Source of the DNA: Nanobdellota archaeon
GTDB lineage: Archaea > Nanobdellota > Nanobdellia > Nanobdellales > Nanobdellaceae
Length of the DNA: 32,000 nucleotides
Reading direction: 5' to 3'
Assembly: GCA_042850255.1 (NCBI GenBank)
Contig: AP031373.1
Span: 180,001-212,000 of the forward strand
The notes under the pieces are model-generated. The model did no database searches, was not told the DNA's origin, and worked only from the letters and a program-made list of their open reading frames with translations. Positions within the stretch are counted from its first letter, which is position 1. Each line of letters opens with the position of its first letter. The position numbers and the translations under genes were made by a program. Positions 9,001 through 31,227 of the stretch are shown one piece after another.

Positions 9001-9435
9001 TGAGAATATTTTTGATGCTACAGAACCATCTGCAGATGCTATTATAGTTATATTATATGTACCTGGAGAATCCGTAGGATTTGGAGCTATATTTATATTA
9101 ACAGAACAAGAATCTGAACTTCCAGATCCACCAACAGGCGTACAACTTGGACCTTGAGGAGTATATTGACATATAACTCTTCCAGATTCATTAGGAGTTA
9201 TAGTACAACTACTTGGTTGAATATTACATGTAAAATATGGAGAATATTGACATGTAAATGTAACTGTAGTCTGAGAACTTACAATATCTGTAGCTGTTGC
9301 TATAGTATTTAATGTTTGGTTAGGATATGATGAACCTGAAGATGGGTACAGATTCAATGATAGTCCTTGAGAGAATACTCTATATGATAAAAAAGAAAAT
9401 GCAAACACTATAGAGAATATTAACACTTTTTTCAT
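6061..9435 (-). CDS. giant secreted modular surface protein (P1), 1124 aa
   Basis: Signal peptide MKKVLIFSIVFAFSFLSYRVFSQ. One N-terminal and four C-terminal Cys-containing Ig/CARDB-like modules of about 110 aa (LSLTL.PSSGSSSPGGSAS...FSC.APS..SCSFP.G..C...C...SSS..PGTY.VTI...FTYTVQQSS). A poly-Asn tract spans aa 151-207. Two copies of an unknown domain of about 190 aa (aa 208-403 and 432-622) are joined by an SPSPSPSPSPPPSPSPSPGPSPS linker. The C-terminus is weakly hydrophobic. Confidence 0.9.
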   Translation of the reverse strand: MKKVLIFSIVFAFSFLSYRVFSQGLSLNLYPSSGSSYPNQTLNTIATATDIVSSQTTVTFTCQYSPYFTCNIQPSSCTITPNESGRVICQYTPQGPSCTPVGGSGSSDSCSVNINIAPNPTDSPGTYNITIIASADGSVASKIFSYTIEGSSNNSNNNNNNSNNNNNNNNNNSGGNNSNNNNNNSNNNNSNNNSGGNQPSNNNQNSNFEVIGYGYNDIDSINGNTVLSLSLPSGASIYICNAGGSPTLSSVSWNVQQESSVPGTLGNLIYTSLGYQNSGECSINVPYLGSSYFYGFSLGGIAIVTDENYTFQGTTYYFGSQSQSTSYNYNVNEPSNVVISVACGYSSCSSINVPSGCQVLVDNSDLNSLGTSFIAVCYNQSPGTYQVSISNPNGIASIGIYEFSSSSPSPSPSPSPPPSPSPSPGPSPSNSGFSIVGYNSTTYNTGSPGPISESISLPSANLYLCNGATSNYPFSSVSWNVQESEQDFSSLGYQSSNVCSATVGSATESGYFVTIGGVAIDTNENYIFQGTTYDQQGKFSYSYTLNTTSNVVISLACGNYGCTSINVPSGCQVLVDKSDPYYFTTSFFAVCYNQSPGTYTISGNYLSASALGLASLGIYEFPSSNSSTNSTNQTSSPLSITLNPSSGYSSPGGSASTEAVVNVVTSGYTHLRFSCNAPSGISCLFPDGNNAYVDHSTTIDWPVNISSSSNTPSGTYNITVTVSGYINGQSQSASATFTYTVQQSSSQSPLSLTLNQSSGSSSPGQSLYISAEAVYSLGGHQKITFSCSAPSNDGISCSFPYGNYCYISHTGTGYPGECNVIVDISSSSNTPSGTYTVTISASTNGYSSSQSFSYTVQQSSNNQPPSSNNQLSLTLSPSSGSSSPGGSASTTADVSSSTLSTGTRVDFICNAPSGFTCSFPDGKYCTIYSGSCSIPINITSSSSVSPGTYSITIEAFAHTGTSSTVSTSSTFTYTVQQSSSSEVGLSLSPSSGYSSPGGSAYTQAVASLTKKLGNYDEVQFSCSAPSNDGISCSFPNGNICYIKYSSCGESVKISSSSSTPVGTYTVTITASVYVGQNLIGSASQEFTYHVKYSRPGNLASSLGSIASTITSIASSIVNTIMHII
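8143..8226 (-). repeat. Ser/Pro dipeptide-repeat linker (locally GC-rich) inside P1
   Basis: Encodes SSSPSPSPSPSPPPSPSPSPGPSPSNS between the two copies of the ~190-aa domain. Confidence 0.9.
8815..8985 (-). repeat. imperfect AAT/AAC trinucleotide tract encoding poly-Asn (aa 151-207 of P1)
   Basis: The plus strand reads (ATT/GTT)n with interspersed AGA and TCC. It translates as SSNNSNNNNNNSNNNNNNNNNNSGGNNSNNNNNNSNNNNSNNNSGGNQPSNNNQNSN. Confidence 0.95.
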
Positions 9436-19867: not shown

Positions 19868-22800
19868 TTATATTAATATTAAAGCTATTGCAATTATTCC
19901 TACTAACAATGGATATAATATATTTTCTGATGCAACTAAGGATGTTGGAGATGAAAAATAATTTACTACTAAATTATATTGATAATTCAATACATTATCA
20001 TTATCTAAATCAAAACCTAGATATAATATAGAAGATCCTACATAAAATGGAAATGTTGCAAGTTGAACTATATAAGATTGTCCCGGTTGTAATGTTGGTA
20101 TATTTATATTTTCCACCTTATAAAGTGGCATATTATTATATAATATTTCTGGAATATTTCCCAATTGTTGCAAACTAATTGAAAGATTATTTATTGTTAT
20201 ATTATTACTAGTATCTGTTAAATTCAATATTAGGTAATAATATGGTATATTTAAATAAAAATTAAGTGTATTTCCCACAGGATAGATTCTTTGATTATTA
20301 TTTTCAGGAATTGCGTATATTTGTAATTTTAATATTTCAGATAGAAGTAAAATGTTAAGAGTATAAGTAGCTATGTATGATGAATAATTATTAAATGCTA
20401 TAACTTGTATACTATACGTACCTGAAGGAGTATATGTAGAAGAAGTTATATCAATTGGTATTGAACATGAAGTACTTGTAGTAGTACATGAATTACCTTG
20501 AGGGAGTGAACAATATACTCCAGAAGGTGGAGAAGAAATCTGTTGAATTGATATAGAGGGCATAACACCATTTGGTGGATATGCTCTCACTAAAGTCCAA
20601 CCAATATTAATCTCTGTAGAAACACCAGATACTCCATCAGTTGACGCTTGAAATAATAAAACAAAAGTATCAGAACTAGAACCAGTTACATAATTACTAT
20701 TTTGAACAACTCCATCAGGCCATAAAATATTAAAGGCAAAACCTGTGCTATTTAATATTTCTTGAACAATAAAAGTATAATCATAAACTGAAGATGAAGC
20801 AGGAACTACATATCCATTATAAGCTCCATTAAAGAATACTTCTGCCTGATTATAATAATTAGTTGATGAAAAAAGTCCATAGTCTCCATGACCCGTTTGT
20901 ACCATCCAACTATAGTAGTTCTGGTCTGCAATATCAGATACACTTGTAGCACTACTTAACCAGATATATTCTCTTGCTCTTATATCATCTCCAGATGATC
21001 CGTATAAATTTTCTAAAGTTTCCCATATAAATGGTTGTGATTGAGTAAATGTTTGCTTTGAATATATCCAAACTCCTCCATAGCTACCATTTCCTAAATA
21101 ATATAATTGAACTCCGTTGTCCACATTCATATAACCTGTTGAACCTGAGGGTATATATTCACCAGCAACCCATAAATCTGTATTCAAACTTGTTCCAGCA
21201 AAATTGTCATAAAACTCAAATACATATTGTCCATTATCATATATTCCATAATTTAGACATTGACTCATATTAGTATATCCTTCTTCATAACAATACCAAT
21301 ATGCGCTTACTCCAACAAATGGATAATATTGTTGATAATAGTTAGTAGAAGAAGGTCCTACATTCATATATATAGTAACCTGTCCATTTGCTGGTATTCC
21401 ATTAGGCAATTTTACCCACCAAACATCACAATATACTCCATTAATATTTTCCTGTCCCTCAAACCAGGAATATAACAAAGTAGTAGAATTGGAGAAATAT
21501 ACATTCTGACCATTAGAGTCTATTTCATTAAATAATGTAGGATTATCTACATATGCAAAATTATTACCTAAATTTACATTTCCGTTACATATTGCAATAT
21601 CTTGTTGAAATGGTGCTGGAGTAGGAATTGGTTGAGAATTTGTTATAGTTATTTGGTATATATTATTTAAATTACAAGAAAGAGTTATAGTTGTAGATGC
21701 ACCTCCTGGATTATATAGATTTGCTGTTGCTGTAGTAGATAAGGATCCTCCTGGATATGTATATCCTGATGAAGGATTTAGTATTAATGAAGTAATAGTT
21801 GGTGGTATTACATTTACAGTTATATTTATAGATCCTGAATTACCTGTAACTGTATCTGTTGCTGTTATTGTTACTGTATATGTTCCAACATTAGTAGTAG
21901 GAGATACGGATATATTTAATACCGCGGATCCTCCCGAACTTGTTGTATTAGGAGATATACTACAAGATAGTCCTGATGGAGCATTGCATGATAAACTTAA
22001 TGAATATCCATAATTATCTGATGCTGTTATTGTTGATATATTATAACTACCTTGGTATATAGTTAATGATGATGGAGATGCTGATACTGATATAGATTCT
22101 GAAGGAACTGTTACTGTAATGGTTGTAGAATTACTATTACCAGTAACTGTATCTGTTGCTACAATATTTATATTATATGTACCAGGAGAAGTACTGGAAG
22201 GTACCGATATAGTTAATGTAGAACTTGATCCTGAAGAAATAGTACTGGGATTAAAACTACAAGACCAACCAGATGGTAAATTACTACAAGATAAAGATAG
22301 AGAATATCCATAATTATCCGAAGCAGTAATTGTTGATGTATTAGAACTTCCTGGATATATATTTAGAGTACTTGGAGATGCCGATACAGAAATTGTTTCT
22401 GAAGGTATATTATATGTAAATGTTGCGGATGCTGAAGAAGCTGAAGTAGATCCTACAATTTGAATATTATAAGAACCTGGAGAAACTGATGTAGATGAAG
22501 TTATATTAATTGGTATTGAACATGAAGTACTTGTAGTAGTACATGAATTACCTTGTGGGAATGAACATGTAAATCCTGATGGAGTATTACATGAAAATGT
22601 TACTGTTGTAGATGCACCTCCTGGATTATATAGATTTGCTGTTGCTGTAGTAGATAAGGATCCTCCTGGAGCAGAGGAACCGGAAGAGGGATTAAGAGTT
22701 ATAGATGTAATTAAGACTGCTGGCTGAATTGAAAATGATGGCATAACACCATTTGGAGGATAAGATCTAATTCTTACCCAATATACCAGATAATTTTGTA

Positions 22801-23821
22801 GAGAAGCTTGTTGAGCAATTGTTATTGGTAATGTAGTATTAGAAGGTAATATTGTGGAAGATCCTACAGTAGTATAATTAATATAAAAATCAATAGTAGT
22901 AGAATTCAATCCTATTCCATATATTGTTGTAATATTATTATAATAAGTACTTCCTATAGTAGTATTTCCAGAATATAATTCAAATAATCCCGCATTACCA
23001 TTATTATTATAAGAAAATGCTGCTCCATCATTATTTCCTCCGACAGTTAATCCTCCTCCACCTCCAATGAAATATGTATATGTTGTACTTGCATTTCCTA
23101 TTCCAAATACTATTACATCAAAGGTAGTTCCTGAAGTTACTGGAATACTTAATTCTGCTTCAATAATATTATTTTGAATACTATAATTATTTGTTGTAGT
23201 TATTCCTGAATTACAACCATTTGAAGGTAATATTGTATAATCTGTACCAAAATTTGGAGAAACACTACAATATATTATGCTCCATCCCGAAGGCAAAGAA
23301 CTTAATCCTCCAAAGTTTTGGTAATAATTAAATACATAATTTCCATTATCATATTGAGAAGTACTTAATACTTGTATTGGGGCACCTACATATGGATAAT
23401 ATTGTGAATAATAATTGTTACTACTATTTCCTATATGCATATATATCGTATAATTACTATTTGCAGGAATTCCATTAGGTAATTTTACCCACCATACATC
23501 ACAATATGTTCTATTAAAGTTTTCCTGACCTTCATACCACGAATATAATAAAGAACCTGTAGGGTCATTTATATTAGTAAAGAAATATACATTCTGTCCA
23601 TTGGAATCTATTTCATTAAATAATGTAGAATTGTCTACATATGCAAAATTATTACCTAAATTTACATTTCCGTTACATATTGCAATATCTTGTTGAAATG
23701 GTGCTGGAGTAGGAATTGGTTGAGAATTTGTTATAGTTATTTGATAAATACTTTGAGAAAATATTTTGTAAGATAAAAATATAGATACTAACACTAATAA
23801 AAATATAGATATCCTTCTCAT
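19868..23821 (-). CDS. giant secreted modular surface protein (P2), 1317 aa: 2x DUF2341 + ConA/LamG-like lectin blocks, Ig/CARDB-like modules, C-terminal TM anchor
   Basis: Signal peptide MRRISIFLLVLVSIFLSYKIFSQ. DUF2341-like signatures appear twice (IYQITITNSQPIPTPAPFQQDIAI...NVYF...LLYSW.EGQEN...CDVWWVKLPNGIPAN...TIYM..G), each followed by a LamG-like YDNG.YVF..Y.NF.G region. Two tandem 100-aa modules span aa 473-672. The Cys-knot modules are shared with P1. The C-terminus is ILYPLLVGIIAIALILI. Confidence 0.9.
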   Translation of the reverse strand: MRRISIFLLVLVSIFLSYKIFSQSIYQITITNSQPIPTPAPFQQDIAICNGNVNLGNNFAYVDNSTLFNEIDSNGQNVYFFTNINDPTGSLLYSWYEGQENFNRTYCDVWWVKLPNGIPANSNYTIYMHIGNSSNNYYSQYYPYVGAPIQVLSTSQYDNGNYVFNYYQNFGGLSSLPSGWSIIYCSVSPNFGTDYTILPSNGCNSGITTTNNYSIQNNIIEAELSIPVTSGTTFDVIVFGIGNASTTYTYFIGGGGGLTVGGNNDGAAFSYNNNGNAGLFELYSGNTTIGSTYYNNITTIYGIGLNSTTIDFYINYTTVGSSTILPSNTTLPITIAQQASLQNYLVYWVRIRSYPPNGVMPSFSIQPAVLITSITLNPSSGSSAPGGSLSTTATANLYNPGGASTTVTFSCNTPSGFTCSFPQGNSCTTTSTSCSIPINITSSTSVSPGSYNIQIVGSTSASSASATFTYNIPSETISVSASPSTLNIYPGSSNTSTITASDNYGYSLSLSCSNLPSGWSCSFNPSTISSGSSSTLTISVPSSTSPGTYNINIVATDTVTGNSNSTTITVTVPSESISVSASPSSLTIYQGSYNISTITASDNYGYSLSLSCNAPSGLSCSISPNTTSSGGSAVLNISVSPTTNVGTYTVTITATDTVTGNSGSINITVNVIPPTITSLILNPSSGYTYPGGSLSTTATANLYNPGGASTTITLSCNLNNIYQITITNSQPIPTPAPFQQDIAICNGNVNLGNNFAYVDNPTLFNEIDSNGQNVYFSNSTTLLYSWFEGQENINGVYCDVWWVKLPNGIPANGQVTIYMNVGPSSTNYYQQYYPFVGVSAYWYCYEEGYTNMSQCLNYGIYDNGQYVFEFYDNFAGTSLNTDLWVAGEYIPSGSTGYMNVDNGVQLYYLGNGSYGGVWIYSKQTFTQSQPFIWETLENLYGSSGDDIRAREYIWLSSATSVSDIADQNYYSWMVQTGHGDYGLFSSTNYYNQAEVFFNGAYNGYVVPASSSVYDYTFIVQEILNSTGFAFNILWPDGVVQNSNYVTGSSSDTFVLLFQASTDGVSGVSTEINIGWTLVRAYPPNGVMPSISIQQISSPPSGVYCSLPQGNSCTTTSTSCSIPIDITSSTYTPSGTYSIQVIAFNNYSSYIATYTLNILLLSEILKLQIYAIPENNNQRIYPVGNTLNFYLNIPYYYLILNLTDTSNNITINNLSISLQQLGNIPEILYNNMPLYKVENINIPTLQPGQSYIVQLATFPFYVGSSILYLGFDLDNDNVLNYQYNLVVNYFSSPTSLVASENILYPLLVGIIAIALILI
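21546..21655 (-). repeat. 110-nt perfect direct repeat, copy 2 (start of second DUF2341 block)
   Basis: Base-for-base identical to 23634-23743 (checked by hand). Similarity above ~90% continues for about 60 nt further towards lower coordinates. Confidence 0.95.
21806..22405 (-). repeat. tandem duplication, 2 x 300 nt (two 100-aa Ig/CARDB-like modules of P2)
   Basis: PSETISVSASPSTLNIYPGSSNTSTITASDNYGYSLSLSCSNLPSGWSCSF... compared with PSESISVSASPSSLTIYQGSYNISTITASDNYGYSLSLSCNAPSGLSCSI...; the period is exactly 100 codons. Confidence 0.95.
23634..23743 (-). repeat. 110-nt perfect direct repeat, copy 1 (start of first DUF2341 block)
   Basis: Identical to 21546-21655. Confidence 0.95.
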
Positions 23822-23897: not shown

Positions 23898-26219
23898 CTA
23901 TGCAAATATTAAAAATGCTAAAATAGAAACAATTGCTATTAATGGTGATAATATACCTTCTGATACTTTAAGATATTGATTATTTGGAGCTGGTGGAAAT
24001 ATACCATATTCCAATAATTCATTGCCAATATAACTTCCATTAATTAAAAATTTAAATAAAAGATTACCGTTTCCAGTATTTATAGGTAAAATAAAAAATT
24101 TTATACTAACTGTTTGATTTGGATATAAATTACCAATATATATAGAATTGCTTTCATTAAATCTTGTATTATTATATACTAAAACCATAGGAGATAAACC
24201 ATATCCTTCTAAATTGTTTAATATATTAAATGTAAAATTACTTATAGGGTAATTACCTACATTAGTTAAATTTACTATTAATTCGTAAAATGGAATTCCA
24301 AGTAATAAACTTATATAATTTTGTACTTGGATTAATGTACCAGATTGGTTTAAAAATATTTTTGGATCTATTAAACCATAATATACAGGAACATATACTA
24401 ATATATCCTTATTAGAACATAATCCTACATTACTACATGATATAACATTTATAGATATTGTTTGTCCTGCATTATATGGTATATAAACACTGAAAGTATT
24501 TTCATTATATGTTATATTTGAATATCCATTGCTTGTTGTTATTGTAATATTATTTATTCCTGATAAAGCATATGAGGATACATTAAAAATTAGATAAGAT
24601 TGATTGTTAATTAAAGATGATCCTAAATATGTTATATTTATTGTTGGTGGATTACTATCTATTAATATATTATTTATACTTTGACTATTACATGTAGTTT
24701 TATTACAATATACTATTGTTAGATTATAAATTCCAGATGTTTTTAATAATTGTGTAAAATTATAGGAACTCAATGTAGTTGAGAAACTACTTTGATATAT
24801 TGGATTATTATTTGCATAAATAGTAAAGTTATTTATATTACTAAATGATGTATTAATTATTAAACCTGTAGTCCATGTTCCAGGAGTATATGTTTGTCCA
24901 TTTGTAGCTAATAAATCTATCGAAACTCCTGCTGGGGCAGAAGTAGGAGTTGTAGAAAATTGTATATTCGAACAGGAAAGAGTTGGGAAAATTATAGGAA
25001 GCATGTTTGTATTTTGGAAAATAAAAGCATTGGTATCAGTATATAGGAAATAATTTAATGTTCTGTGTATAACTATATTATTACTTTCATTAACGGCTAT
25101 AAAAACGGGAGAAAAAACGTCATAAATACAATTAATTGTTAGATTATCAATAATGTCATTAGAAATGCCTGAGAGACTTGTAGGTAGTCCAAATACATAT
25201 TCTGTTAAAGAAGCTAATATATCGGAGAACAAATTATTATTTATAGGAGATGAACGGAAGTAAATACCATAAGTGGAATTATAAATATAGATATTAGAAA
25301 ATGAATTGCTATTTACAGGAGATGAATAGAAGTAAATACCATAAGGCGAATTATATATATTTATATTAGAAAATGAATTATTAGATATGTCATAAAAAGG
25401 AGGAGAAGAAGAAGAATAAAGATATGAATAAATACCATAAGTGGAATTATAAATATAGATATTAGAAAATGAATTATTAGATACATCGGAATAAGCAGCT
25501 TCTGAACTAGAATAAGGATACAAATAAATACCATAAGTGGAATTATAAATATAGATATTAGAAAATGAATTATTAGATACATAGGCATTGGAATAATCAA
25601 AGCCATAAGAAGTAGGGTATAGATAAATACCATAAAGGGAGTTATATATATTTATATTAGAAAATGAATTATTAGATACATAGGCATAAGAAGTATAAAT
25701 ATTACTAGGAAAAGGAAGAGAAGAAGGAGGAGGCTCTGAATTAGAATAAAGATACAAATAAATACCATAAAGGGAGTTATATATATTTATATTAGAAAAT
25801 GAATTATTAGATACATAGGCATAAACATTATAAGAATTACTATAAATAGAAGGAGATAGATAAATACTAATATTTACATTAGATATACTTAAATTATTTA
25901 TAAATATATTTTCTAAAATTATATTACTAGAACCAGAAGAAATACTATAGTATATTCCATAAGTATCTGTATTTTCACCAGGACCGATTATCCAATATCC
26001 ATTTCCATCAATTATTACATTATTTGTAGCTATTTGTATACAATAATATATACCCAAAGTAGAATTATAAACAAAATTTGTTAAATTATTTGTTAAATAA
26101 TAAACACCTGGAGAACTTATTGTAATACCACAGGAAGATATAGGAGTTTGGGAATAAATATTATGATTAAATAAAAATCCAAATATTAATAATAACAATC
26201 CATATATAAACTTTTTCAT
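23898..26219 (-). CDS. secreted right-handed parallel beta-helix (PbH1/NosD-like) surface protein (P3), 773 aa, C-terminal TM anchor
   Basis: Signal peptide MKKFIYGLLLLIFGFLFNHNIYSQ. The N-terminal cap CGITISSPGVYYLTNNL...CIQIATNNVIIDGNGYWIIG is typical of archaeal beta-helix proteins. There are at least 6 coils of VSNNSFSNI(N/Y)IYNS.YGIY.Y, Ig-like middle domains and many N-x-S/T sequons. The C-terminal domain and the anchor (ILSPLIAIVSILAFLIFA) are homologous to those of P2. Confidence 0.88.
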   Translation of the reverse strand: MKKFIYGLLLLIFGFLFNHNIYSQTPISSCGITISSPGVYYLTNNLTNFVYNSTLGIYYCIQIATNNVIIDGNGYWIIGPGENTDTYGIYYSISSGSSNIILENIFINNLSISNVNISIYLSPSIYSNSYNVYAYVSNNSFSNINIYNSLYGIYLYLYSNSEPPPSSLPFPSNIYTSYAYVSNNSFSNINIYNSLYGIYLYPTSYGFDYSNAYVSNNSFSNIYIYNSTYGIYLYPYSSSEAAYSDVSNNSFSNIYIYNSTYGIYSYLYSSSSPPFYDISNNSFSNINIYNSPYGIYFYSSPVNSNSFSNIYIYNSTYGIYFRSSPINNNLFSDILASLTEYVFGLPTSLSGISNDIIDNLTINCIYDVFSPVFIAVNESNNIVIHRTLNYFLYTDTNAFIFQNTNMLPIIFPTLSCSNIQFSTTPTSAPAGVSIDLLATNGQTYTPGTWTTGLIINTSFSNINNFTIYANNNPIYQSSFSTTLSSYNFTQLLKTSGIYNLTIVYCNKTTCNSQSINNILIDSNPPTINITYLGSSLINNQSYLIFNVSSYALSGINNITITTSNGYSNITYNENTFSVYIPYNAGQTISINVISCSNVGLCSNKDILVYVPVYYGLIDPKIFLNQSGTLIQVQNYISLLLGIPFYELIVNLTNVGNYPISNFTFNILNNLEGYGLSPMVLVYNNTRFNESNSIYIGNLYPNQTVSIKFFILPINTGNGNLLFKFLINGSYIGNELLEYGIFPPAPNNQYLKVSEGILSPLIAIVSILAFLIFA
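25230..25829 (-). repeat. degenerate tandem nucleotide repeats encoding beta-helix coils of P3
   Basis: Recurrent units ATAAATACCATAAGTGGAATTATAAATATAGATATTAGAAAATGAATT and ATAAATACCATAAAGGGAGTTATATATATTTATATTAGAAAATGAATTATTAGATACATAGGCATAA. A 67-nt perfect repeat occurs at 25623-25689 and 25758-25824. Confidence 0.9.
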
Positions 26220-26485: not shown

Positions 26486-27535
26486 ATGGGTTTAGCAGAA
26501 ATTAGAGAATTAATTAAACCAGTAATAAAGGAAGTTGATTTATCATATTTGTCAGGAAAAATTGTTGCTCTAGATGGATTTAATGCTTTATATCAATTTC
26601 TAGCAGCGATTAGACAACCTGATGGTACTCCTTTAAAAGATTCAAAAGGGAGGATTACTTCTCATTTATCAGGATTATTTTATAGAACAAAAAATTTAAT
26701 AGAAGCTGGAATAAAGGTTATATATGTATTTGATGGTAAACATCCTGAATTTAAGAAAAAAGAACAGGAAATAAGAGAAGAACAAAGGAAAAAGATGGAA
26801 GAAAAATATAAGAAAGCAATTGAAATGGGAATAAAGGGAGATTTAAAAAAATATGCAGAATTTACTTCAAAACTAGAACCTGGAATGGTTGATGAATCAA
26901 AAGAATTACTAGAAGCAATGGGGGTTCCATATGTACAAGCTCCATCTGAAGGAGAAGCGCAGGCTGCATATTTAGTTAAGAAAGGAATTGCAGACTATGT
27001 TGGATCACAAGATTATGATTCATTATTATTTGGAGGACTAAGGGTTGCAAGAAATTTAACTATTACTGGAAAAAGAAAAGTAAGAGGTGTAGAAGTTGAA
27101 ATATCTCCAGAAATTATTGAATTAAATGAACTATTAAATTATTTAAAATTTAATCAAGAAAAATTAATATGGTTTGCATTAATTGTTGGAACTGATTATA
27201 ATCCAGATGGGATCCCTGGTATAGGAGTAAAGACTGCATATGATTTAGTAAAAAATAATGATGATCCAGAAAAATTATTTAAATATGTAGGATGGGAAAA
27301 ATATTATAAAGATATTTCATGGAAAGAATTAGAAGAATTTTTCTTGGATCCTCCTGTAATTGATATAAATAAGGATGATATTAAATTTGGAGAAGTTGAT
27401 GAAGAAAAAATAAGAAAAATATTGATAGATAATCATGATTTTTCTGAAGAAAGGGTTAATAAAGCAATAGATGAATTAAAAAAAGCATATAAACAAGGAA
27501 CTCAAAAAAATATATTATCTTTCTTTGGAAAATAA
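26486..27535 (+). CDS. fen: flap endonuclease 1 (FEN1)
   Basis: MGLAEIRELI...VALDGFNALYQFL...ITSHLSGLFYRT..L.EAGIKVIYVFDG.....K, QAPSEGEAQAAYL, GSQDYDSLLFG and TDYNPDGIPGIGVKTA are canonical FEN1 N, I and H3TH motifs. Confidence 0.95.
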   Translation: MGLAEIRELIKPVIKEVDLSYLSGKIVALDGFNALYQFLAAIRQPDGTPLKDSKGRITSHLSGLFYRTKNLIEAGIKVIYVFDGKHPEFKKKEQEIREEQRKKMEEKYKKAIEMGIKGDLKKYAEFTSKLEPGMVDESKELLEAMGVPYVQAPSEGEAQAAYLVKKGIADYVGSQDYDSLLFGGLRVARNLTITGKRKVRGVEVEISPEIIELNELLNYLKFNQEKLIWFALIVGTDYNPDGIPGIGVKTAYDLVKNNDDPEKLFKYVGWEKYYKDISWKELEEFFLDPPVIDINKDDIKFGEVDEEKIRKILIDNHDFSEERVNKAIDELKKAYKQGTQKNILSFFGK

Positions 27536-27536
27536 A

Positions 27537-27585
27537 TCAGAATGGGTAAAATTCATCATTTTTCAGTACTCGGCAAATTCATCAC
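27537..27585 (-). ncRNA. C/D-box sRNA (2'-O-methylation guide), sRNA-2
   Basis: On the minus strand: C box GTGATGA (27585-27579); 12-nt guide ATTTGCCGAGTA (27578-27567); D' box CTGA (27566-27563); 3-4 nt linker; C' box (A)TGATGA (27559-27553); 12-nt guide ATTTTACCCATT (27552-27541); D box CTGA (27540-27537). This is the canonical archaeal 12-nt spacing. Confidence 0.85.
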
Positions 27586-29183
27586 TCATATGCTTTATGT
27601 ATATATTCTTTGAAACATCTATAAGTATTAAATAATGGTCCAATTGTTTTTATTGCATTTAATGCTACATCAATATATTTTTCATAATTATTTCTAAATT
27701 CGTTTAATACAAAATCTAGTTTATTATAAAAGTCTTCTACATCTTTTTCATCAGTATTTACATTTACATCATAATTATTTTCTCCAAAGAACCATCCATT
27801 ATAATCATCTATTATTATTTCTAATGGAGATCCATCTCTAGAGAATAATGTAGGAGTTCCATTAATACCTGCCCTCATCCATGAAGTTCCTGATGCTTCA
27901 AATGGTGGTCTTGGTATATGTAAAAATATATCAGTACCAGATAATACTATTTTTTCTTGTTCATATCCTCTTTTTAATATTAATCCTACTGGTAAATCTA
28001 GCGTTGACATTATATCAACAATCCATTTTATTGTATTTTTTACAAAATCATCTTTAGGATGGAAAGAACCAGATAATAAAAATTGTATCCTATATTTTCT
28101 ATTTAATTCTTCTAATTTTTCTAATCTCCATAATAACATATGAAATCTTTTATATTCTGTTAATCTTCTTTTAACAGTTATTATTACTCTATCTTCTTTA
28201 AATTCTTTATTTAAATATCCTTTTACATTGACATAATCAATTAATTCTTTTCTTAATAAATTTTTTACTTTTATAAACTGTGATCTATTAATTATTTGAG
28301 CATAAGATAATTTTCCAGGTTCTGATCTCCATCCAGGAATATATGTATCATATAAAAATGCAATTTTCCTATCCGCCCATCTTATATGATGAATACCATT
28401 AGTTATATAATCTACCTTTTTTCCAAATACTTTTTCAGTAATTACTTTATGTTTATAAGACACTGCATTAATATATCCTGCTAATTCAAATAAAACTCTA
28501 GTTAATGACAATTTATCTGGAGACAATTTTTTTATTTCTTCAGGTATATCATAATATTTTTCTATAATATTATAATCAAATAAATCATGGCCTGCAATAA
28601 TTGAATGAGTAGTAAATACAACTTTTTCTTTTACTTCTTCAATATTTTTTAATCTTTTATATAACTCTATTGCTAAAAATCCTCCATGTGATTCATTTAA
28701 ATGATATTTATCAATTTCAATTCCCATTTTTTCAAAGAATTCTAATGATCCTAATCCTAATAATAAATCCTTTAGTAATTTTTCTTCTTCACTATCTTCA
28801 TAATATAATCTTCCAGTTAATTTTCTAATATTTTGATCATTTTGTGGTAAATCTGTATCAAATAAAAATAATTTTGAATGAGATAAACTATATTTCCATA
28901 CTTGAAAATATATTCTTTTTCCCTTTAGATCTATATAAAATTTATCTTCTAAATTTAGAAAATATTCTAATGGATCATATTCTTCTTCCTCATATATTAT
29001 TTCCTTATTTTTTATACTATATTGACCATATCCTTTTTTATTTACAAATGTAATCCCATATATTGGATACCTTAAATCATTTGAAGAATACAACAGATCT
29101 CCTGCTAATATTCCCAATCCTCCTGCATATGTTGGTAATTTTTCAATGGAGAATTCTTGTGATATAAATGCTATCTTTTTCAT
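27582..29183 (-). CDS. alpha-glucan phosphorylase family (GT35) protein, short archaeal form; PLP-lysine position is Arg
   Basis: The N-terminal YAGGLGILAGDLL and C-terminal PRPPFEASGTSWMRAGINGTP...DG...NGWFFG follow the GT35 pattern (sGGLGvLaGD...; EASGTsgMKaalNG...DGWW..NGW.fG). Confidence 0.8.
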   Translation of the reverse strand: MKKIAFISQEFSIEKLPTYAGGLGILAGDLLYSSNDLRYPIYGITFVNKKGYGQYSIKNKEIIYEEEEYDPLEYFLNLEDKFYIDLKGKRIYFQVWKYSLSHSKLFLFDTDLPQNDQNIRKLTGRLYYEDSEEEKLLKDLLLGLGSLEFFEKMGIEIDKYHLNESHGGFLAIELYKRLKNIEEVKEKVVFTTHSIIAGHDLFDYNIIEKYYDIPEEIKKLSPDKLSLTRVLFELAGYINAVSYKHKVITEKVFGKKVDYITNGIHHIRWADRKIAFLYDTYIPGWRSEPGKLSYAQIINRSQFIKVKNLLRKELIDYVNVKGYLNKEFKEDRVIITVKRRLTEYKRFHMLLWRLEKLEELNRKYRIQFLLSGSFHPKDDFVKNTIKWIVDIMSTLDLPVGLILKRGYEQEKIVLSGTDIFLHIPRPPFEASGTSWMRAGINGTPTLFSRDGSPLEIIIDDYNGWFFGENNYDVNVNTDEKDVEDFYNKLDFVLNEFRNNYEKYIDVALNAIKTIGPLFNTYRCFKEYIHKAYE

Positions 29184-29206
29184 TAAAAAATATGATGCAT
29201 TGAAAT

Positions 29207-31144
29207 TTATAACTCTGATATATTTACTATATCATGGTTAAATCTTTCATCAAAATATTTTTCTAATTCATTTATATTTACCCTTATTTGTTGTTTTGTA
29301 TCCCTAAATCTAATTGTTACAGTATTATCTCTTAATGTTTGATCATCAACAGTAATACAATATGGAGTCCCAATTTCATCTTGTCTTCTATATCTAACCC
29401 CAATTCTTCCAGAATCATCATAATATACATCAAATTTTTTTCTTAATTTATTATAAATCTCTTTTGCAACTTTTATATGATTTTCATTATTTTCTAATAA
29501 AGGAAATACTGCAACTTGTATTGGGGATAAATATTCTGGTAATTTTAATATATTATCATAAAATATATCTAATAGTGAAAATATATTTCTATCAACTCCA
29601 AAAGATAATTCCAATTCTACAGGAATAAATCTTGTTCCATCATTTCTTGTTACAATAAATCTTCTATCCTTTGATAATATAAAATGATTCCATAAATCAT
29701 ATCCAACAAATATTTCTTCTCTTGTAAATAATTTCATTACATCTTCTCTTATTTCTTTATCAACTTTTTCAATTATATTAGGTTTTAATTTTAATACTCT
29801 AAAATGTATTCCTCCAACTTCTGTCCATCCAATCTCATCTAAGTATAATTCTAAATCAAAATGATATAAATTATAGAAAGATTTTTCATTATCTGCTAAT
29901 TGGTAAAACCTTATCCTTTCCTTTGGTATTTTTAATATTTTTGTATAAAAGCTAAATACTTTATATAAAAAGTATAAATAAAATTTATCAATTCCTGTTT
30001 CTTCATATATTTCCTTCAAACTTTTTTCTTCAAATTGTACATTCTTTTCTCTATCTTTTACTAATAATACATTTATATATTGATCATCATATAAATCAAA
30101 TTCTCTTTCAAATGGATTATTATAATAATCAAAGAATATTTGTAATTCTGCTTGAGTAAATTCTCTCATTCTAATTAATCCATTTCTTGGAGATATTTCA
30201 TTCCTAAATGCTTTTCCTATTATATATAATCCTAATGGTAATCTATATCTATTTATTATAAATTCTATTGGAAAATTAATATAAACTCCTTGTGCAGTTT
30301 CTGGTCTTAAATACATTTCATTATTTTTTAATCTATTATATTTATCTATTAATTCTATTATATCATCAAAATTAAATTCTAAATCTATATATTCTAATTT
30401 ATCAAACATTTCTTCTATATAATTTATTTCTTCATTATTTATTTCTAAATTTTCAGGATAAATAAAATACTCTTTAGAATTATTATCATATTTTATTATT
30501 ATACTTTTACCTTCATCAAATATATATGTTATATTTTCTTTATTTAATCCAAATAATTTTTTATCCTTTAAATATTTTTTATAAATATATGAAACTTCTT
30601 CTTCAGTAATTTTTTTATATTTTTTACTTTCTAGATCATATAATATATTAAATTTTCTCTTTATATCTTCTAAATATAAAAATAAATCTGATTCTGGTCC
30701 AACAAATATTGGAAACATTAAATTAAATAATTTAACATTTGATAATTTTTCTCCACATTCTGGACAAACAATTTTTCTTTCATCAAATATTCTATTCATA
30801 TCATTTATTGTCAAACTTTCTGCCTTAATATTTAATTTCTCCTCAATTAATTTATCTGCTCTAAATCTATGCCCATTTCTACATTCAACAATAGGATCAT
30901 TAAATAATTCCAAATGTTTTGATGCAACAAATACATTTTTATGCATTATTTCTGAAGGTTGTAATTCATAAATATTATCAAATAATTTTCCAAAATATAA
31001 TCTCCATAAATATTCAAATCTTTTTTTAAATAAAGTACCTAAAGATCCATAATCATAAAATCCAGATTTTCCTCCATATATTTCTCCAGATTCGTAAAAG
31101 AATCCTTTTTCTTTTGCATATTTAATTAAACTATTTATATCCAT
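29207..31144 (-). CDS. glyS: glycine--tRNA ligase (archaeal/eukaryotic alpha2 type) with an internal insertion of ~120 aa
   Basis: MDINSLIKYAKEKGFFYESGEIYGGKSGFYDYGSLGTL, FNLMFP, YLRPETAQGVYINF, FRNEISPRNGLIRMREFTQAE and an anticodon-binding C-terminus. The ORF track starts at 31198 (MYTFVYSKFFKKNYKLVK-), but alignment to archaeal GlyRS N-termini favours the ATG at 31144. The start remains uncertain. Confidence 0.88.
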   Translation of the reverse strand: MDINSLIKYAKEKGFFYESGEIYGGKSGFYDYGSLGTLFKKRFEYLWRLYFGKLFDNIYELQPSEIMHKNVFVASKHLELFNDPIVECRNGHRFRADKLIEEKLNIKAESLTINDMNRIFDERKIVCPECGEKLSNVKLFNLMFPIFVGPESDLFLYLEDIKRKFNILYDLESKKYKKITEEEVSYIYKKYLKDKKLFGLNKENITYIFDEGKSIIIKYDNNSKEYFIYPENLEINNEEINYIEEMFDKLEYIDLEFNFDDIIELIDKYNRLKNNEMYLRPETAQGVYINFPIEFIINRYRLPLGLYIIGKAFRNEISPRNGLIRMREFTQAELQIFFDYYNNPFEREFDLYDDQYINVLLVKDREKNVQFEEKSLKEIYEETGIDKFYLYFLYKVFSFYTKILKIPKERIRFYQLADNEKSFYNLYHFDLELYLDEIGWTEVGGIHFRVLKLKPNIIEKVDKEIREDVMKLFTREEIFVGYDLWNHFILSKDRRFIVTRNDGTRFIPVELELSFGVDRNIFSLLDIFYDNILKLPEYLSPIQVAVFPLLENNENHIKVAKEIYNKLRKKFDVYYDDSGRIGVRYRRQDEIGTPYCITVDDQTLRDNTVTIRFRDTKQQIRVNINELEKYFDERFNHDIVNISEL

Positions 31145-31227
31145 TTTAACTAATTTATAATTTTTCTTAAAAAATTTACTGTATACAAATGTATACATTT
31201 ATAAATAACAAAAAGAATTATATTATT

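What the first reader, a model, noticed from the sequence alone, without database searches (positions are those of the whole stretch)
20354..23749. Nested architecture in P2: a second DUF2341-lectin block inserted inside a Cys-knot module, marked by 110-, 66- and 48-nt perfect repeats
Seen in sequence:
- P2 reads SP - D1 (aa 25-366) - B1 (372-472) - C1 - C2 - B2 N-half (676-717) - D2 (721-1094) - B2 C-half (1097-1156) - tail.
- In B1 the sequence runs ...TVTFSCN|TPSGFTCSFPQGNSCTTTSTSCSIPINI. In B2 it runs ...TITLSCN|LNN-[IYQITITN...374 aa...SIQQIS]-SPPSGVYCSLPQGNSCTTTSTSCSIPIDI.
- So a complete D block sits exactly at the SCN|PSG junction of an otherwise intact module.
- The junctions carry perfect nucleotide identity with the first copy: 110 nt (21546-21655 equals 23634-23743), 66 nt (21690-21755 equals 22605-22670) and 48 nt (20453-20500 equals 22508-22555). 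The interiors of D1 and D2 have diverged strongly.

Inference:
- This looks like recent or ongoing intragenic recombination or gene conversion acting on the module edges, or a domain-insertion event, while the lectin cores diversify.
- That pattern is expected for variable adhesins.
- The long perfect repeats could also drive deletion of the 2.1-kb segment between them, producing a short isoform.
Basis: seen in the sequence. Interest (0 to 1): 0.7.

Follow-up and report, generated by a model that had tools for sequence, protein, structure and literature searches.

The report
Lectin unit nested inside Ig-like module
A large surface protein of the tiny parasitic archaeon YN1 carries two sugar-binding-type heads, the second spliced into a loop of a stalk domain, and patches of perfect DNA identity show that its repeated parts still exchange sequence, a plausible way to vary how the parasite grips its host.

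Summary
The gene at 19868-23821 (minus strand) is YN1_2360 of the cultivated Nanobdellota archaeon YN1. It reads SP-D1-B1-C1-C2-B2(N half)-D2-B2(C half)-tail. The 110-, 66- and 48-nt repeats are exact and maximal; shuffled sequence gives at most 18 nt.

B is not a cystine knot. It is a four-Cys Ig-like sandwich (AF2 pLDDT above 90). D2 sits in the four-residue turn between two strands, inside a hairpin flanked by a conserved Cys pair.

D1 and D2 are not diverged twins. Their lectin cores belong to different old subtypes: D1 core is 83% identical to paralog YN1_3250, and D2 core is closest (41%) to a nanoarchaeal virus protein. The perfect tracts carry no silent changes, while 20-40% of conserved codons differ silently elsewhere, which indicates patchy gene conversion.

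The pattern is family-wide. Nanopusillus homologs nest a D unit in a different loop of B, swap the nested core (27% against 67-91% in the flanks), and share exact tracts up to 581 nt between neighbouring paralogs. Collapsed variants exist.

An adhesin role is inferred, not shown. The D unit also occurs in pilin-like proteins and in structural proteins of Sulfolobales viruses.

Verdict: a real feature, a new variant of a known kind, of moderate interest.

The parts
19868..23821 (-). Whole gene P2 = YN1_2360, 1317 aa. It has an N-terminal signal peptide and a C-terminal TM helix, with 26 N-X-S/T sequons and a composition of S 14%, N 10.7%, T 10.3%.
   Evidence: ORF list, translation, 100% match to NCBI 'hypothetical protein YN1_2360 [Nanoarchaeota archaeon]', hydrophobic 19-mers at aa 3-22 and 1295-1317
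23750..23821 (-). Signal peptide, aa 1-24
   Evidence: Hydrophobic segment; AF2 helix 2-20; the mature D starts at IYQITITN, as in homologs
22724..23749 (-). D1, aa 25-366: a conserved N-part (aa 25-150, DUF2341-type sandwich) plus a lectin-like core of subtype 'alpha'
   Evidence: N-part pLDDT above 90. Core is 82.6% identical to YN1_3250 and 52-60% to Nanopusillus cores. Foldseek hits to Emp47p/L-type lectin CRDs and the SasG lectin domain.
22406..22723 (-). B1, aa 367-472: intact four-Cys Ig-like module (Cys 411, 419, 427, 434)
   Evidence: AF2 pLDDT 87-97 per 10-residue block, with strands 370-377, 388-398, 405-412, 417-420, 426-429, 433-442, 449-458 and 463-472. Weak PKD match of 21.1 bits.
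21800..22405 (-). C1 (aa 473-574) and C2 (aa 575-674): two Ig-like modules, each with two Cys, about 70% identical to each other and without conversion tracts
   Evidence: Pfam NPCBM_assoc/NEW3 31.4 bits, above the cutoff of 24.4; C1 vs C2 tests P = 0.09 and 0.95; Cys positions
21662..21799 (-). B2 N half (aa 675-717, strands A-C, ending ...TLSC716-N717) plus the linker LNN (718-720)
   Evidence: 83% identical to B1 aa 371-412; contains the 66-nt tract
20540..21661 (-). D2, aa 721-1094: the nested lectin unit. The N-part is 80% identical to D1 and 81% to YN1_2510. The core is of subtype 'gamma'.
   Evidence: Pfam DUF2341 29.2 bits, above the cutoff of 23.4. All residues invariant across the 19 rows aligned in A1 are present. 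Core is 40.8% identical to NV1_37. Foldseek of a low-confidence model hits legume/L-type lectins, calreticulin and the Aap lectin domain. Homologous over its full length to rudivirus proteins.
20354..20539 (-). Linker ISS plus the B2 C half (aa 1098-1156, strands C'-G; Cys 1104, 1112, 1119)
   Evidence: 64% identical to B1 aa 414-471; contains the 48-nt tract
19871..20353 (-). Tail, aa 1157-1317: family-specific C-terminal module ending in a TM helix
   Evidence: 48-52% identical to the tails of about 10 homologs and 32% to the tail of the neighbouring 773-aa ORF. No Pfam match.
23634..23743 (-). 110-nt perfect tract, copy in D1 (aa 27-63)
   Evidence: 36 codons without any silent difference
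21546..21655 (-). 110-nt perfect tract, copy in D2 (aa 723-759)
22605..22670 (-). 66-nt perfect tract, copy in B1 (N half)
21690..21755 (-). 66-nt perfect tract, copy in B2N
22508..22555 (-). 48-nt perfect tract, copy in B1 (C half, PQGNSCTTTSTSCSIP)
20453..20500 (-). 48-nt perfect tract, copy in B2C

Best explanation
P2 (YN1_2360) is a secreted, C-terminally membrane-anchored, probably glycosylated modular surface protein of the ectosymbiotic archaeon YN1. It has a stalk of four Ig-like modules (B1, C1, C2, B2) and two lectin-type heads. D1 sits at the N-terminal tip. D2 is grafted as a side branch into the four-residue turn between strands C and C' of the membrane-proximal module B2. That hairpin is flanked by the Cys pair C716/C1104. 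In C1 and C2 the equivalent two Cys are the only cysteines, so they presumably pair with each other. Each head consists of a conserved DUF2341-type N-part, a variable concanavalin-A-like core and a conserved C-terminal motif R-x-YPPNGVMPS. D1 and D2 carry cores of different, old subtypes, so D2 is a separately derived cassette and not a decayed copy of D1. The three perfect tracts are patches of recent short-tract gene conversion between the conserved edges of the paralogous modules (D 5' edge, B N half, B C half). Across the family, homologous recombination through these conserved edges homogenises them within a genome, swaps lectin cores in a fixed slot, and creates or collapses nested architectures. 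The architecture, the mosaic identity pattern and the family comparisons are shown here. That the protein is a bivalent host-binding adhesin, that B2 refolds around D2, and that deletion isoforms arise in the YN1 population are inferences.
For: Architecture and exact tracts. Insertion in a turn of a confidently modelled Ig-like module: (B1 pLDDT 87-97 per block; turn TPSG 413-416 between strands 405-412 and 417-420). Conserved Cys pair flanking the turn, the only Cys in C1 and C2. Lectin fold: (L-type lectin CRDs, calreticulin, Aap/SasG lectin domains; prob 1.0, TMt 0.45-0.57). DUF2341 above Pfam threshold in D2. Conversion: 0 silent differences in the tracts against 19/98 and 20/72 elsewhere, P = 7e-4 and 5e-3, with a negative control in C1/C2. 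Different core subtypes: (D1 core 83-84% to YN1_3250; D2 core 41-42% to NV1_37; D1 vs D2 core 27-29%), while N-parts are 71-83% identical within YN1. Family-wide support is as follows. Nanopusillus proteins P0002, P0004 and P0008 nest a D in another loop of B. In these three proteins every segment is 67-91% identical except the nested core, which is 27% in P0008. The N. acidilobi locus L002 has exact repeats of 581, 372, 297 and 116 nt among three adjacent paralogs, and the flanks of its nested D are 100% identical to an uninterrupted B in the next gene. P0032 (SP-D-last two B strands) and P0020 (B strands A-E - D - complete B) look like reciprocal crossover products. Assembly is reliable: a closed hybrid Nanopore+Illumina assembly from a pure co-culture (PMC11420986). 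Adhesin context: D units sit at the C-terminus of pilin-like paralogs; DUF2341 proteins are predicted type IV pilus tip adhesins in archaea (PMC4858521); lectin/Ig-like surface proteins are proposed for host recognition in Nanobdella; D units occur in structural proteins of Sulfolobales viruses.
Against: The AF2 model of the nested region itself was poor (mean pLDDT 56, both B2 halves near or below 50, only 19 alignment rows), so refolding of the split B2 is not shown. Homologs with incomplete B remnants (P0032, P0020) show that a B fragment next to a D need not be part of a folded module. No sugar-binding residues, expression data or localisation are available, and the YN1 paper does not mention this protein. 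No close strain variant exists in the protein database searched (next hit at most 62% identical), so ongoing turnover in this gene is not demonstrated. DNA of the YN1 paralogs could not be fetched, so donors of the tracts are unknown. The lectin fold assignment rests on models whose core is of low to moderate confidence.
Confidence: 0.7

Rival explanations
1. Simple recent intragenic duplication of a D-B unit, followed by rapid divergence (positive selection) of the lectin cores. On this view the perfect tracts are leftovers of the duplication, not gene conversion.
For: D N-parts and B halves are the most similar parts (80%, 83%, 64%). Surface proteins of Nanoarchaeota show raised non-synonymous SNP density (PMC6142677).
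Against: Outside the tracts, 20-40% of conserved codons already differ silently, which does not fit a recent duplication. D1 core is 83% identical to another gene's core (YN1_3250) and 52-60% to Nanopusillus cores, but only 27% to D2. D2 core is closest to NV1_37. The subtype split therefore predates the YN1/Nanopusillus divergence. A tandem duplication cannot give the order B(N)-D-B(C).
Confidence: 0.07
2. Assembly artefact: the nested arrangement or the repeats come from a mis-join or collapse of paralogous reads.
For: The family is multi-copy in the genome (at least 6 YN1 paralogs), and repeats are a classic source of mis-assembly.
Against: The genome is a closed circle from a Unicycler hybrid of Nanopore and 2x150 Illumina reads from a pure co-culture, with 99.7% of reads mapped. 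The longest exact repeat (110 nt) is shorter than one Illumina read. The ORF is intact over 3954 nt with all invariant residues of the aligned relatives. Independent genomes and metagenomes carry nested D-in-B proteins.
Confidence: 0.03
3. The split B2 is a non-folding scar. On this view P2 is a by-product of illegitimate or unequal recombination in a recombination-prone family, with B2N and B2C as linker-like remnants and no designed 'side-branch' geometry.
For: AF2 did not fold B2 around D2. P0032 keeps only the last two B strands after a D, and P0020 has a B lacking its last two strands before a D. N. acidilobi Nps_03075 (the 1052-residue gene in L002) ends before the tail, apparently truncated by recombination.
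Against: The break lies exactly in a four-residue turn, with all strands and all four Cys retained. B2N and B2C remain 83% and 64% identical to B1. The E-F-loop nested form is conserved in at least three diverged proteins, which argues that nested B modules are maintained.
Confidence: 0.15
4. The perfect tracts are kept identical by selection on the nucleotide sequence itself (an RNA or DNA element) or by extreme codon bias in a 25% GC genome, not by recombination.
For: GC is 25%, so synonymous choices are restricted. The 110-nt tract encodes the most conserved peptide of the family (PFQQDIAICNG).
Against: The silent-site test uses the gene's own rate of silent differences among conserved codons and still rejects chance. 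The equally constrained C1/C2 pair shows no tract. In N. acidilobi, exact tracts of 297-581 nt cover quite different parts of the genes, as expected for recombination and not for a specific element.
Confidence: 0.05

Closest known systems
Predicted lectin-like / Ig-like / pectin-lyase-like surface glycoproteins of Nanobdella aerobiophila (Kato et al., bioRxiv 10.1101/2023.10.27.564410; e.g. MJ1_0776 = P0041)
   Same: Same phylum and lifestyle. Large S/T/N-rich proteins with many sequons, Ig-like folds and ConA-like lectin domains, proposed for host recognition. MJ1_0776 carries a homologous D unit.
   Different: That work describes domain content from structure prediction. In the passages retrieved by the term search of that paper, nesting of a lectin unit inside an Ig-like module, core subtypes and conversion tracts do not appear. 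P2 has two heads and a different stalk.
DUF2341 (PF10102) proteins, usually paired with a LamG/ConA-like domain; predicted type IV pilus tip adhesins in archaea and PilY1-type adhesins (Makarova et al. 2016, PMC4858521)
   Same: D2 passes the Pfam threshold. More distant homologs carry PF10102 together with PF13385. YN1 paralogs YN1_8890 and YN1_6470 place the D unit behind a pilin-like N-terminus.
   Different: P2 has a cleavable-type signal peptide and a C-terminal anchor, not a pilin signal. D1 alone scores below the Pfam threshold (13.9 bits). No type IV pilus genes lie in the window.
Staphylococcal Aap / SasG (L-type lectin A-domain on a stalk of repeated B modules, C-terminally anchored)
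   Same: Same logic of a lectin head on a repetitive beta-rich stalk anchored at the C-terminus. The Aap and SasG lectin domains are among the structural matches.
   Different: There is no sequence relationship. Aap/SasG have one terminal lectin and no nested one, use G5-E repeats rather than Ig-like modules, and are sortase-anchored.
Structural proteins of Sulfolobales viruses with a C-terminal D unit (SBRV1 'DUF2341 domain-containing protein', SIRV4 ORF37, SSRV1 gp22 'putative viral structural protein'; also SEV1 and SPV2 proteins)
   Same: Full-length homology of the D unit, including PFQQ, the W-x-KLP-x-IPAN motif, YDNG-x-VF-x-FYDNFAGT and the terminal RAYPPNGVMPS (tblastn E down to 9e-23; pairwise 30% identity, E 2e-24; Foldseek E 1e-16). 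Their hosts belong to the same order as YN1's host.
   Different: These are viral proteins with a single D at the C-terminus, no Ig stalk and no nesting. Their role in adsorption has not been tested.
Segmental gene-conversion systems of variable surface proteins (e.g. Neisseria pilE/pilS, Mycoplasma genitalium MgpB/MgPar, Borrelia vlsE). Comparison from general knowledge.
   Same: Variable cores bounded by conserved sequence that serves as recombination homology. Mosaic identity, and paralogs arranged next to one another (N. acidilobi locus).
   Different: No dedicated silent cassettes were found in the window. All copies seen are parts of intact genes. No evidence of programmed or high-frequency switching.
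Nested (inserted) domains in general
   Same: A complete domain inserted in a surface loop of a parent domain whose two halves stay contiguous in space. Insertion is at a turn.
   Different: In this family it recurs at three different sites (C-C' turn of B; E-F loop of B; first hairpin of the DUF2341 part), and the nested unit is exchangeable.

Membership tests
DUF2341 (PF10102) | Score at or above Pfam gathering threshold (23.4 bits) | tested here: met
   D2 alone scores 29.2 bits and the whole protein 25.2 bits. D1 alone scores only 13.9 bits, but its N-part is 80% identical to that of D2.
Concanavalin A-like lectin / LamG fold (D core) | Two-sheet jelly-roll sandwich of about 200-250 aa matching solved L-type lectins | tested here: inconclusive
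   Foldseek prob 1.0 to legume lectins, Emp46p/47p, ERGIC-53, VIP36, calreticulin and Aap/SasG lectin domains, with TMt 0.45-0.57. However, the model cores have pLDDT 30-75, and there were no sequence hits in PDB.
Concanavalin A-like lectin (function) | Carbohydrate- and metal-binding residues; demonstrated sugar binding | not testable with these tools
   No coordinates are returned by the structure tool, and there is no biochemical data.
   B1 has four Cys (411, 419, 427, 434) and B2 has four (716, 1104, 1112, 1119). The predicted fold is an eight-strand sandwich.
Ig-like / PKD domain (PF00801) for B | Pfam threshold 23.5 bits; beta-sandwich of about 7-8 strands | tested here: inconclusive
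   The whole protein scores 27.8 bits but with no single stretch passing, and B1 alone scores 21.1 bits, below the cutoff. At fold level it is met: pLDDT 87-97 per block, eight strands, and Ig-like structural hits (SbsC domains, MAM-Ig).
NPCBM_assoc / NEW3 Ig-like domain (PF10633) for C1/C2 | Pfam threshold 24.4 bits | tested here: met
   31.4 bits on aa 473-674
Archaeal S-layer protein of YN1 | Orthology to the proposed Nanobdellota S-layer proteins | tested here: not met
   The YN1 paper assigns these to YN1_5000 and YN1_2560. P2 is neither of them.
Diversity-generating retroelement target | Nearby reverse transcriptase plus template repeat with A-specific mismatches | tested here: not met
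   No RT was found among the 18 window ORFs scanned against Pfam (seven short ORFs at 476-2796 were not scanned). Differences between the repeats are not adenine-specific, and the tracts are perfect.
Cassette-type gene-conversion variation system | Mosaic identity with conserved flanks around variable cores | tested here: met
Cassette-type gene-conversion variation system | Observed switching or variants within a population | not testable with these tools
   No reads and no close strains are available.

The most novel reading that the evidence does not exclude
The D-unit proteins of thermoacidophilic Nanobdellota form a recombination-driven cassette system for host recognition. The conserved DUF2341-type 5' part and the 3' YPPNGVMPS motif act as homology handles through which lectin cores are exchanged among paralogs. 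They are possibly also exchanged with viruses, since the closest core to D2 is in a nanoarchaeal virus and the unit is shared with virion proteins of viruses of the Sulfolobales host. Loops of Ig-like modules serve as docking slots that let a cell display several specificities on one stalk. P2 would then be a two-specificity adhesin that can collapse to one-headed forms by in-frame recombination at its 110-, 66- or 48-nt tracts. The ectosymbiont and the host's viruses would be drawing on one pool of receptor-binding modules.
Probability: 0.3. Interest if true: 0.7.

Novelty: new variant of a known kind. Interest (0 to 1): 0.45.

Why it matters
YN1 and Sulfurisphaera form one of the few cultivated DPANN-host systems, and the proteins that recognise and hold the host are unknown (PMC11420986). 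This gene family gives concrete, testable candidates. It comprises lectin-type heads on Ig-like stalks, present both as anchored surface proteins and behind pilin-like N-termini. The heads are homologous to a unit in structural proteins of viruses that infect the same host order. The mosaic identity pattern, seen here and more strongly in Nanopusillus, suggests how an organism with a genome of about 0.77 Mb can keep varying its attachment repertoire without a dedicated diversification machine. The recurrent grafting of whole domains into loops of small Ig-like modules is also a natural example of tolerated domain insertion, of interest for protein engineering.

Tried and rejected
(1) DNA of the YN1 paralogs (YN1_2510, YN1_3250) is not on record in the gene-position index, and the YN1 genome was not returned by the genome-contig scan. 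Donors of the tracts could therefore not be identified.

(2) AF2 of the nested region B2N-D2-B2C, using a hand-built alignment of nested, D-only and D-B rows, gave mean pLDDT 56 and says nothing reliable about B2. MAFFT could not align B-only fragments across the insertion.

(3) The structure tools return no coordinates, so the distance between the D termini and the Cys-Cys distances could not be measured.

(4) A sequence search of PDB with D2 gave no hit.

(5) Two scans of IMG/VR viral contigs, with D2 and with alignment A1, found no relatives. The viral link came instead from the GenBank phage collection and from BFVD.

(6) Literature searches for NV1 and for SIRV2 P564 were unproductive, and the NV1 paper is not held.

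(7) The DGR explanation was rejected: no RT was found among the ORFs scanned.

(8) The S-layer protein explanation was rejected.

(9) The idea that the Nanopusillus nested D is a very recent insertion, because its flanks are 100% identical to the neighbour's intact B, was set aside. The nested form is shared by diverged proteins, so the identical flanks are better read as conversion.

(10) No silent D fragments occur elsewhere in the window.

Full report
Source and context. The window comes from the 773-kb closed genome of the cultivated Nanobdellota (Nanoarchaeota) archaeon YN1. The ORF at 19868-23821 (minus strand, 1317 aa) is 100% identical to 'hypothetical protein YN1_2360'. GC content is 25%. 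Neighbouring genes are archaeal housekeeping genes: FEN1/XPG, SecY, TruD, class I and II aminoacyl-tRNA synthetases and a glycogen-synthase-like enzyme. YN1 is an obligate ectosymbiont of Sulfurisphaera ohwakuensis. Its genome was assembled from Nanopore plus Illumina reads of a pure co-culture into one circle (PMC11420986). That paper does not mention this protein and states that the proteins of the attachment organelle are unknown.

The observation. The three repeats are exact and maximal, and the 110-nt pair is the longest exact repeat in the window. In 200 codon-shuffles of the gene the longest repeat averaged 13.8 nt, with a maximum of 18. The tail ends in a hydrophobic helix. B2N is 83% identical to the first 42 residues of B1 and B2C is 64% identical to the rest, so B2 is complete apart from the interruption between N717 and P1098.

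What the modules are. B is not a cystine knot, because it has only four Cys. An AF2 model of SP-D1-B1, built on 43 aligned relatives (mean pLDDT 79, pTM 0.75), gives B1 a pLDDT of 87-97 per 10-residue block. It shows eight strands at 370-377, 388-398, 405-412, 417-420, 426-429, 433-442, 449-458 and 463-472. Pfam sees a borderline PKD domain in B and a NEW3-type Ig-like domain in C1/C2. The D2 insertion point (SCN|TPSG in B1 numbering) is therefore the four-residue turn 413-416 between two strands. The two Cys flanking this turn (C411/C419; C716/C1104 in B2) are conserved in C1 and C2, where they are the only Cys. I infer that they pair, so that D2 sits inside a disulfide-closed hairpin. This could not be measured, because the tools return no coordinates.

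D has three parts. The first is a conserved N-part of about 120 aa (pLDDT above 90; 70-80% identical across genera). The second is a variable core. The third is a conserved end, W-x-x-R-x-YPPNGVMPS. D2 passes the Pfam DUF2341 threshold (29.2 bits). Both models retrieve L-type lectin domains: legume lectins, Emp46p/47p, ERGIC-53, VIP36, calreticulin and the Aap/SasG lectin domains (TMt 0.45-0.57). The cores are modelled with only low to moderate confidence, so 'lectin-like fold' is likely, and sugar binding is untested.

Gene conversion rather than a decaying duplicate. In a codon alignment the perfect tracts contain no silent differences over 36 codons (D) and 21 codons (B). Outside them, 19 of 98 (D N-part) and 20 of 72 (B) identical-residue codons differ silently. 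Permutation gives P below 5e-5 for all sites and P = 7e-4 and 5e-3 for silent sites only. C1 against C2, which are 70% identical, shows no tract (P = 0.09 and 0.95). The cores tell the same story. D1 core is 82.6% identical to the core of paralog YN1_3250 and 52-60% to Nanopusillus cores. D2 core is closest to protein NV1_37 of Nanoarchaeotal virus 1 (40.8%, E 1e-40) and about 27% to D1. The D2 N-part is closest to paralog YN1_2510 (81-83%), including a shared 13-residue insert. N-part similarity therefore follows the genome (concerted evolution), whereas core similarity follows old subtypes shared between genera. D2 is a different cassette whose first 110 nt were later made identical to D1, or the reverse.

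The family shows the same behaviour more strongly. The commonest architecture among 120 homologs is SP-D-B-spacer-tail, about 810-860 aa. Four further observations matter.

(1) Nanopusillus proteins P0002, P0004 (Nps_03075) and P0008 carry a second D nested in B, but in a different loop. That loop lies between the strands corresponding to 433-442 and 449-458...LYVNS|FIQLPSG-D-...SIS|LSALTPGSY. The C-C' turn site is unique to P2 among the 120 homologs.

(2) In these three proteins every segment is 67-91% identical except the nested core, which is 27% in P0008. This is a core swap inside a conserved slot.

(3) In N. acidilobi, three family members lie side by side next to the same tRNA synthetase, glycogen synthase and FEN1 genes as in the window. 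They share exact tracts of 581, 372, 297 and 116 nt. The two flanks of the nested D in Nps_03075 (the 1052-residue gene) are 100% identical to the uninterrupted B of the neighbouring 1215-residue gene.

(4) P0032 is SP-D followed by only the last two B strands. P0020 has a B lacking those strands, then a D, then a complete B. These are the two products expected from a crossover within D between a nested gene and a canonical gene.

A third kind of nesting also occurs. YN1_3250, YN1_8890, YN1_6470, P0007 and Nanobdella MJ1_0776 carry a Cys-rich module of about 210 aa inserted in the first hairpin of the D N-part (AICNG|...|NFAY). It is of the same type as the two tandem modules of P1 at 6061-9435.

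Consequences for P2. Because all three tract pairs are in frame, homologous recombination would give three products. The 110-nt pair gives SP-D(1/2 hybrid)-B2C-tail (621 aa), analogous to P0032. The 66-nt pair gives SP-D1-B[D2]-tail (1012 aa), the Nanopusillus-type layout. The 48-nt pair gives SP-D1-B-tail (632 aa), the canonical layout. Whether these arise in YN1 cultures cannot be tested here. No close strain variants exist in the protein database searched (next best hit at most 62%).

Function. Several features fit a surface-displayed, glycosylated protein: the signal peptide, the C-terminal TM helix, 26 sequons and the S/T/N-rich composition. Several lines point to binding of host surface structures. 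These are the lectin-type fold, the presence of D units behind archaeal pilin-like N-termini in YN1_8890 and YN1_6470, and the earlier prediction that DUF2341 proteins are type IV pilus tip adhesins (PMC4858521). A further line is the proposal that lectin-like and Ig-like proteins mediate host recognition in Nanobdella.

An unexpected further line is that the complete D unit, including its terminal RAYPPNGVMPS motif, occurs at the C-terminus of a protein of about 580 aa in Sulfolobales rudiviruses. Examples are SBRV1 (E 9e-23) and SIRV4 ORF37 (pairwise E 2e-24). SSRV1 gp22 is annotated as a putative structural protein and lies next to the large minor structural protein. Structural matches extend to proteins of Sulfolobus ellipsoid virus 1 and Sulfolobus polyhedral virus 2. 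These viruses infect the order to which YN1's host belongs. The adhesin role remains an inference.

Rivals. A plain recent duplication is contradicted by the silent differences and by the trans-genus core subtypes. An assembly artefact is very unlikely, given the hybrid closed assembly, repeats shorter than a read, the intact ORF and independent nested homologs. Nucleotide-level selection or codon bias is contradicted by the internal control and by the different placement of exact tracts in Nanopusillus. The most serious rival concerns structure, not evolution: B2 might be a non-folding scar. The nested model was poor (pLDDT 56), and B remnants exist in P0032 and P0020. Against this stand the exact placement in a turn, the retention of all strands and Cys, and the conservation of the other nested form.

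Verdict. It is wrong on 'Cys-knot', and imprecise on 'cores diversify', because they are swapped old subtypes. The kind of protein is already known from Nanobdella predictions and from DUF2341 adhesin proposals. The nested lectin-in-Ig layout, its recurrence at three sites, the exchangeable nested core and the conversion tracts do not appear in the passages retrieved from the two papers searched. This is a new variant of a known kind, of moderate interest.

Noticed in passing
window 20540-21661 (D2); loci L003 3236-4981 and L004 3245-5032: The whole D unit (DUF2341-type part, lectin-like core and terminal RAYPPNGVMPS) is homologous to the C-terminal two thirds of a protein of about 580-595 aa in Sulfolobales rudiviruses (SBRV1, SIRV4, SSRV1 gp22 'putative viral structural protein', ARV1). 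It also matches, by structure, proteins of Sulfolobus ellipsoid virus 1 and Sulfolobus polyhedral virus 2. These viruses infect the order of YN1's host.
   Followed up: partly
window 20540-21300 (D2 core); protein P0028: The closest relative of the D2 lectin core is NV1_37 of Nanoarchaeotal virus 1 (40.8% over 245 aa, E 1e-40). It is also the top structural hit in BFVD (E 5e-34). No relative was found in IMG/VR.
   Followed up: partly
proteins P0006 (YN1_3250), P0057 (YN1_8890), P0060 (YN1_6470), P0007, P0041 (MJ1_0776); window 6061-9435 (P1): A Cys-rich module of about 210 aa, present twice in tandem in P1, is nested inside the first hairpin of the D N-part (after AICNG) in five homologs. YN1_8890 and YN1_6470 begin with an archaeal type IV pilin-like signal (Pilin_N 19.5 bits, below the cutoff).
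   Followed up: partly
window 23898-26219 (minus strand): The 773-aa ORF directly upstream of P2 has a signal peptide and about 10 copies of a unit resembling NNSFSNI-IYNS-YGIYLY, which is beta-helix-like. It has its own exact repeats of 67, 60 and 47 nt and a tail 32% identical to the P2 tail. There is no Pfam match.
   Followed up: partly
window 6061-9435 (P1, YN1_2240): P1 has five B-type modules, and the first carries an extra Cys-rich loop of about 25 aa. It also has a long poly-N/S linker, a (PS)n linker and exact internal repeats of 49, 35 and 33 nt. One 26-nt exact match links P1 (6620-6645) to P2 (22500-22525).
   Followed up: no
L002 5910-14883 (Nanopusillus acidilobi CP010514.1): Three adjacent family genes (products of 590, 1052 [Nps_03075] and 1215 residues) share exact tracts of 581, 372, 297 and 116 nt. 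A 372-nt tract runs from the end of one gene, through the intergenic region, into the start of the next, as expected for unequal crossing-over. Nps_03075 ends before the tail module.
   Followed up: partly
proteins P0032 and P0020 (metagenomic): P0032 is SP-D followed by only the last two strands of B. P0020 has B without its last two strands, then D, then a complete B. They look like reciprocal products of a crossover within D.
   Followed up: partly
window 26486-31198 vs L002 14918-19159: The block of class II aminoacyl-tRNA synthetase, glycogen-synthase-like gene and FEN1 lies beside the large surface-protein genes in both YN1 and N. acidilobi, but on opposite sides. This indicates a local rearrangement.
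   Followed up: no
L001 9680-13349 (Nanopusillus sp. RHS.bin.5): The relative of P2 in this MAG appears as two consecutive ORFs of 533 and 602 aa. This may be a split or frameshifted family member.
   Followed up: no
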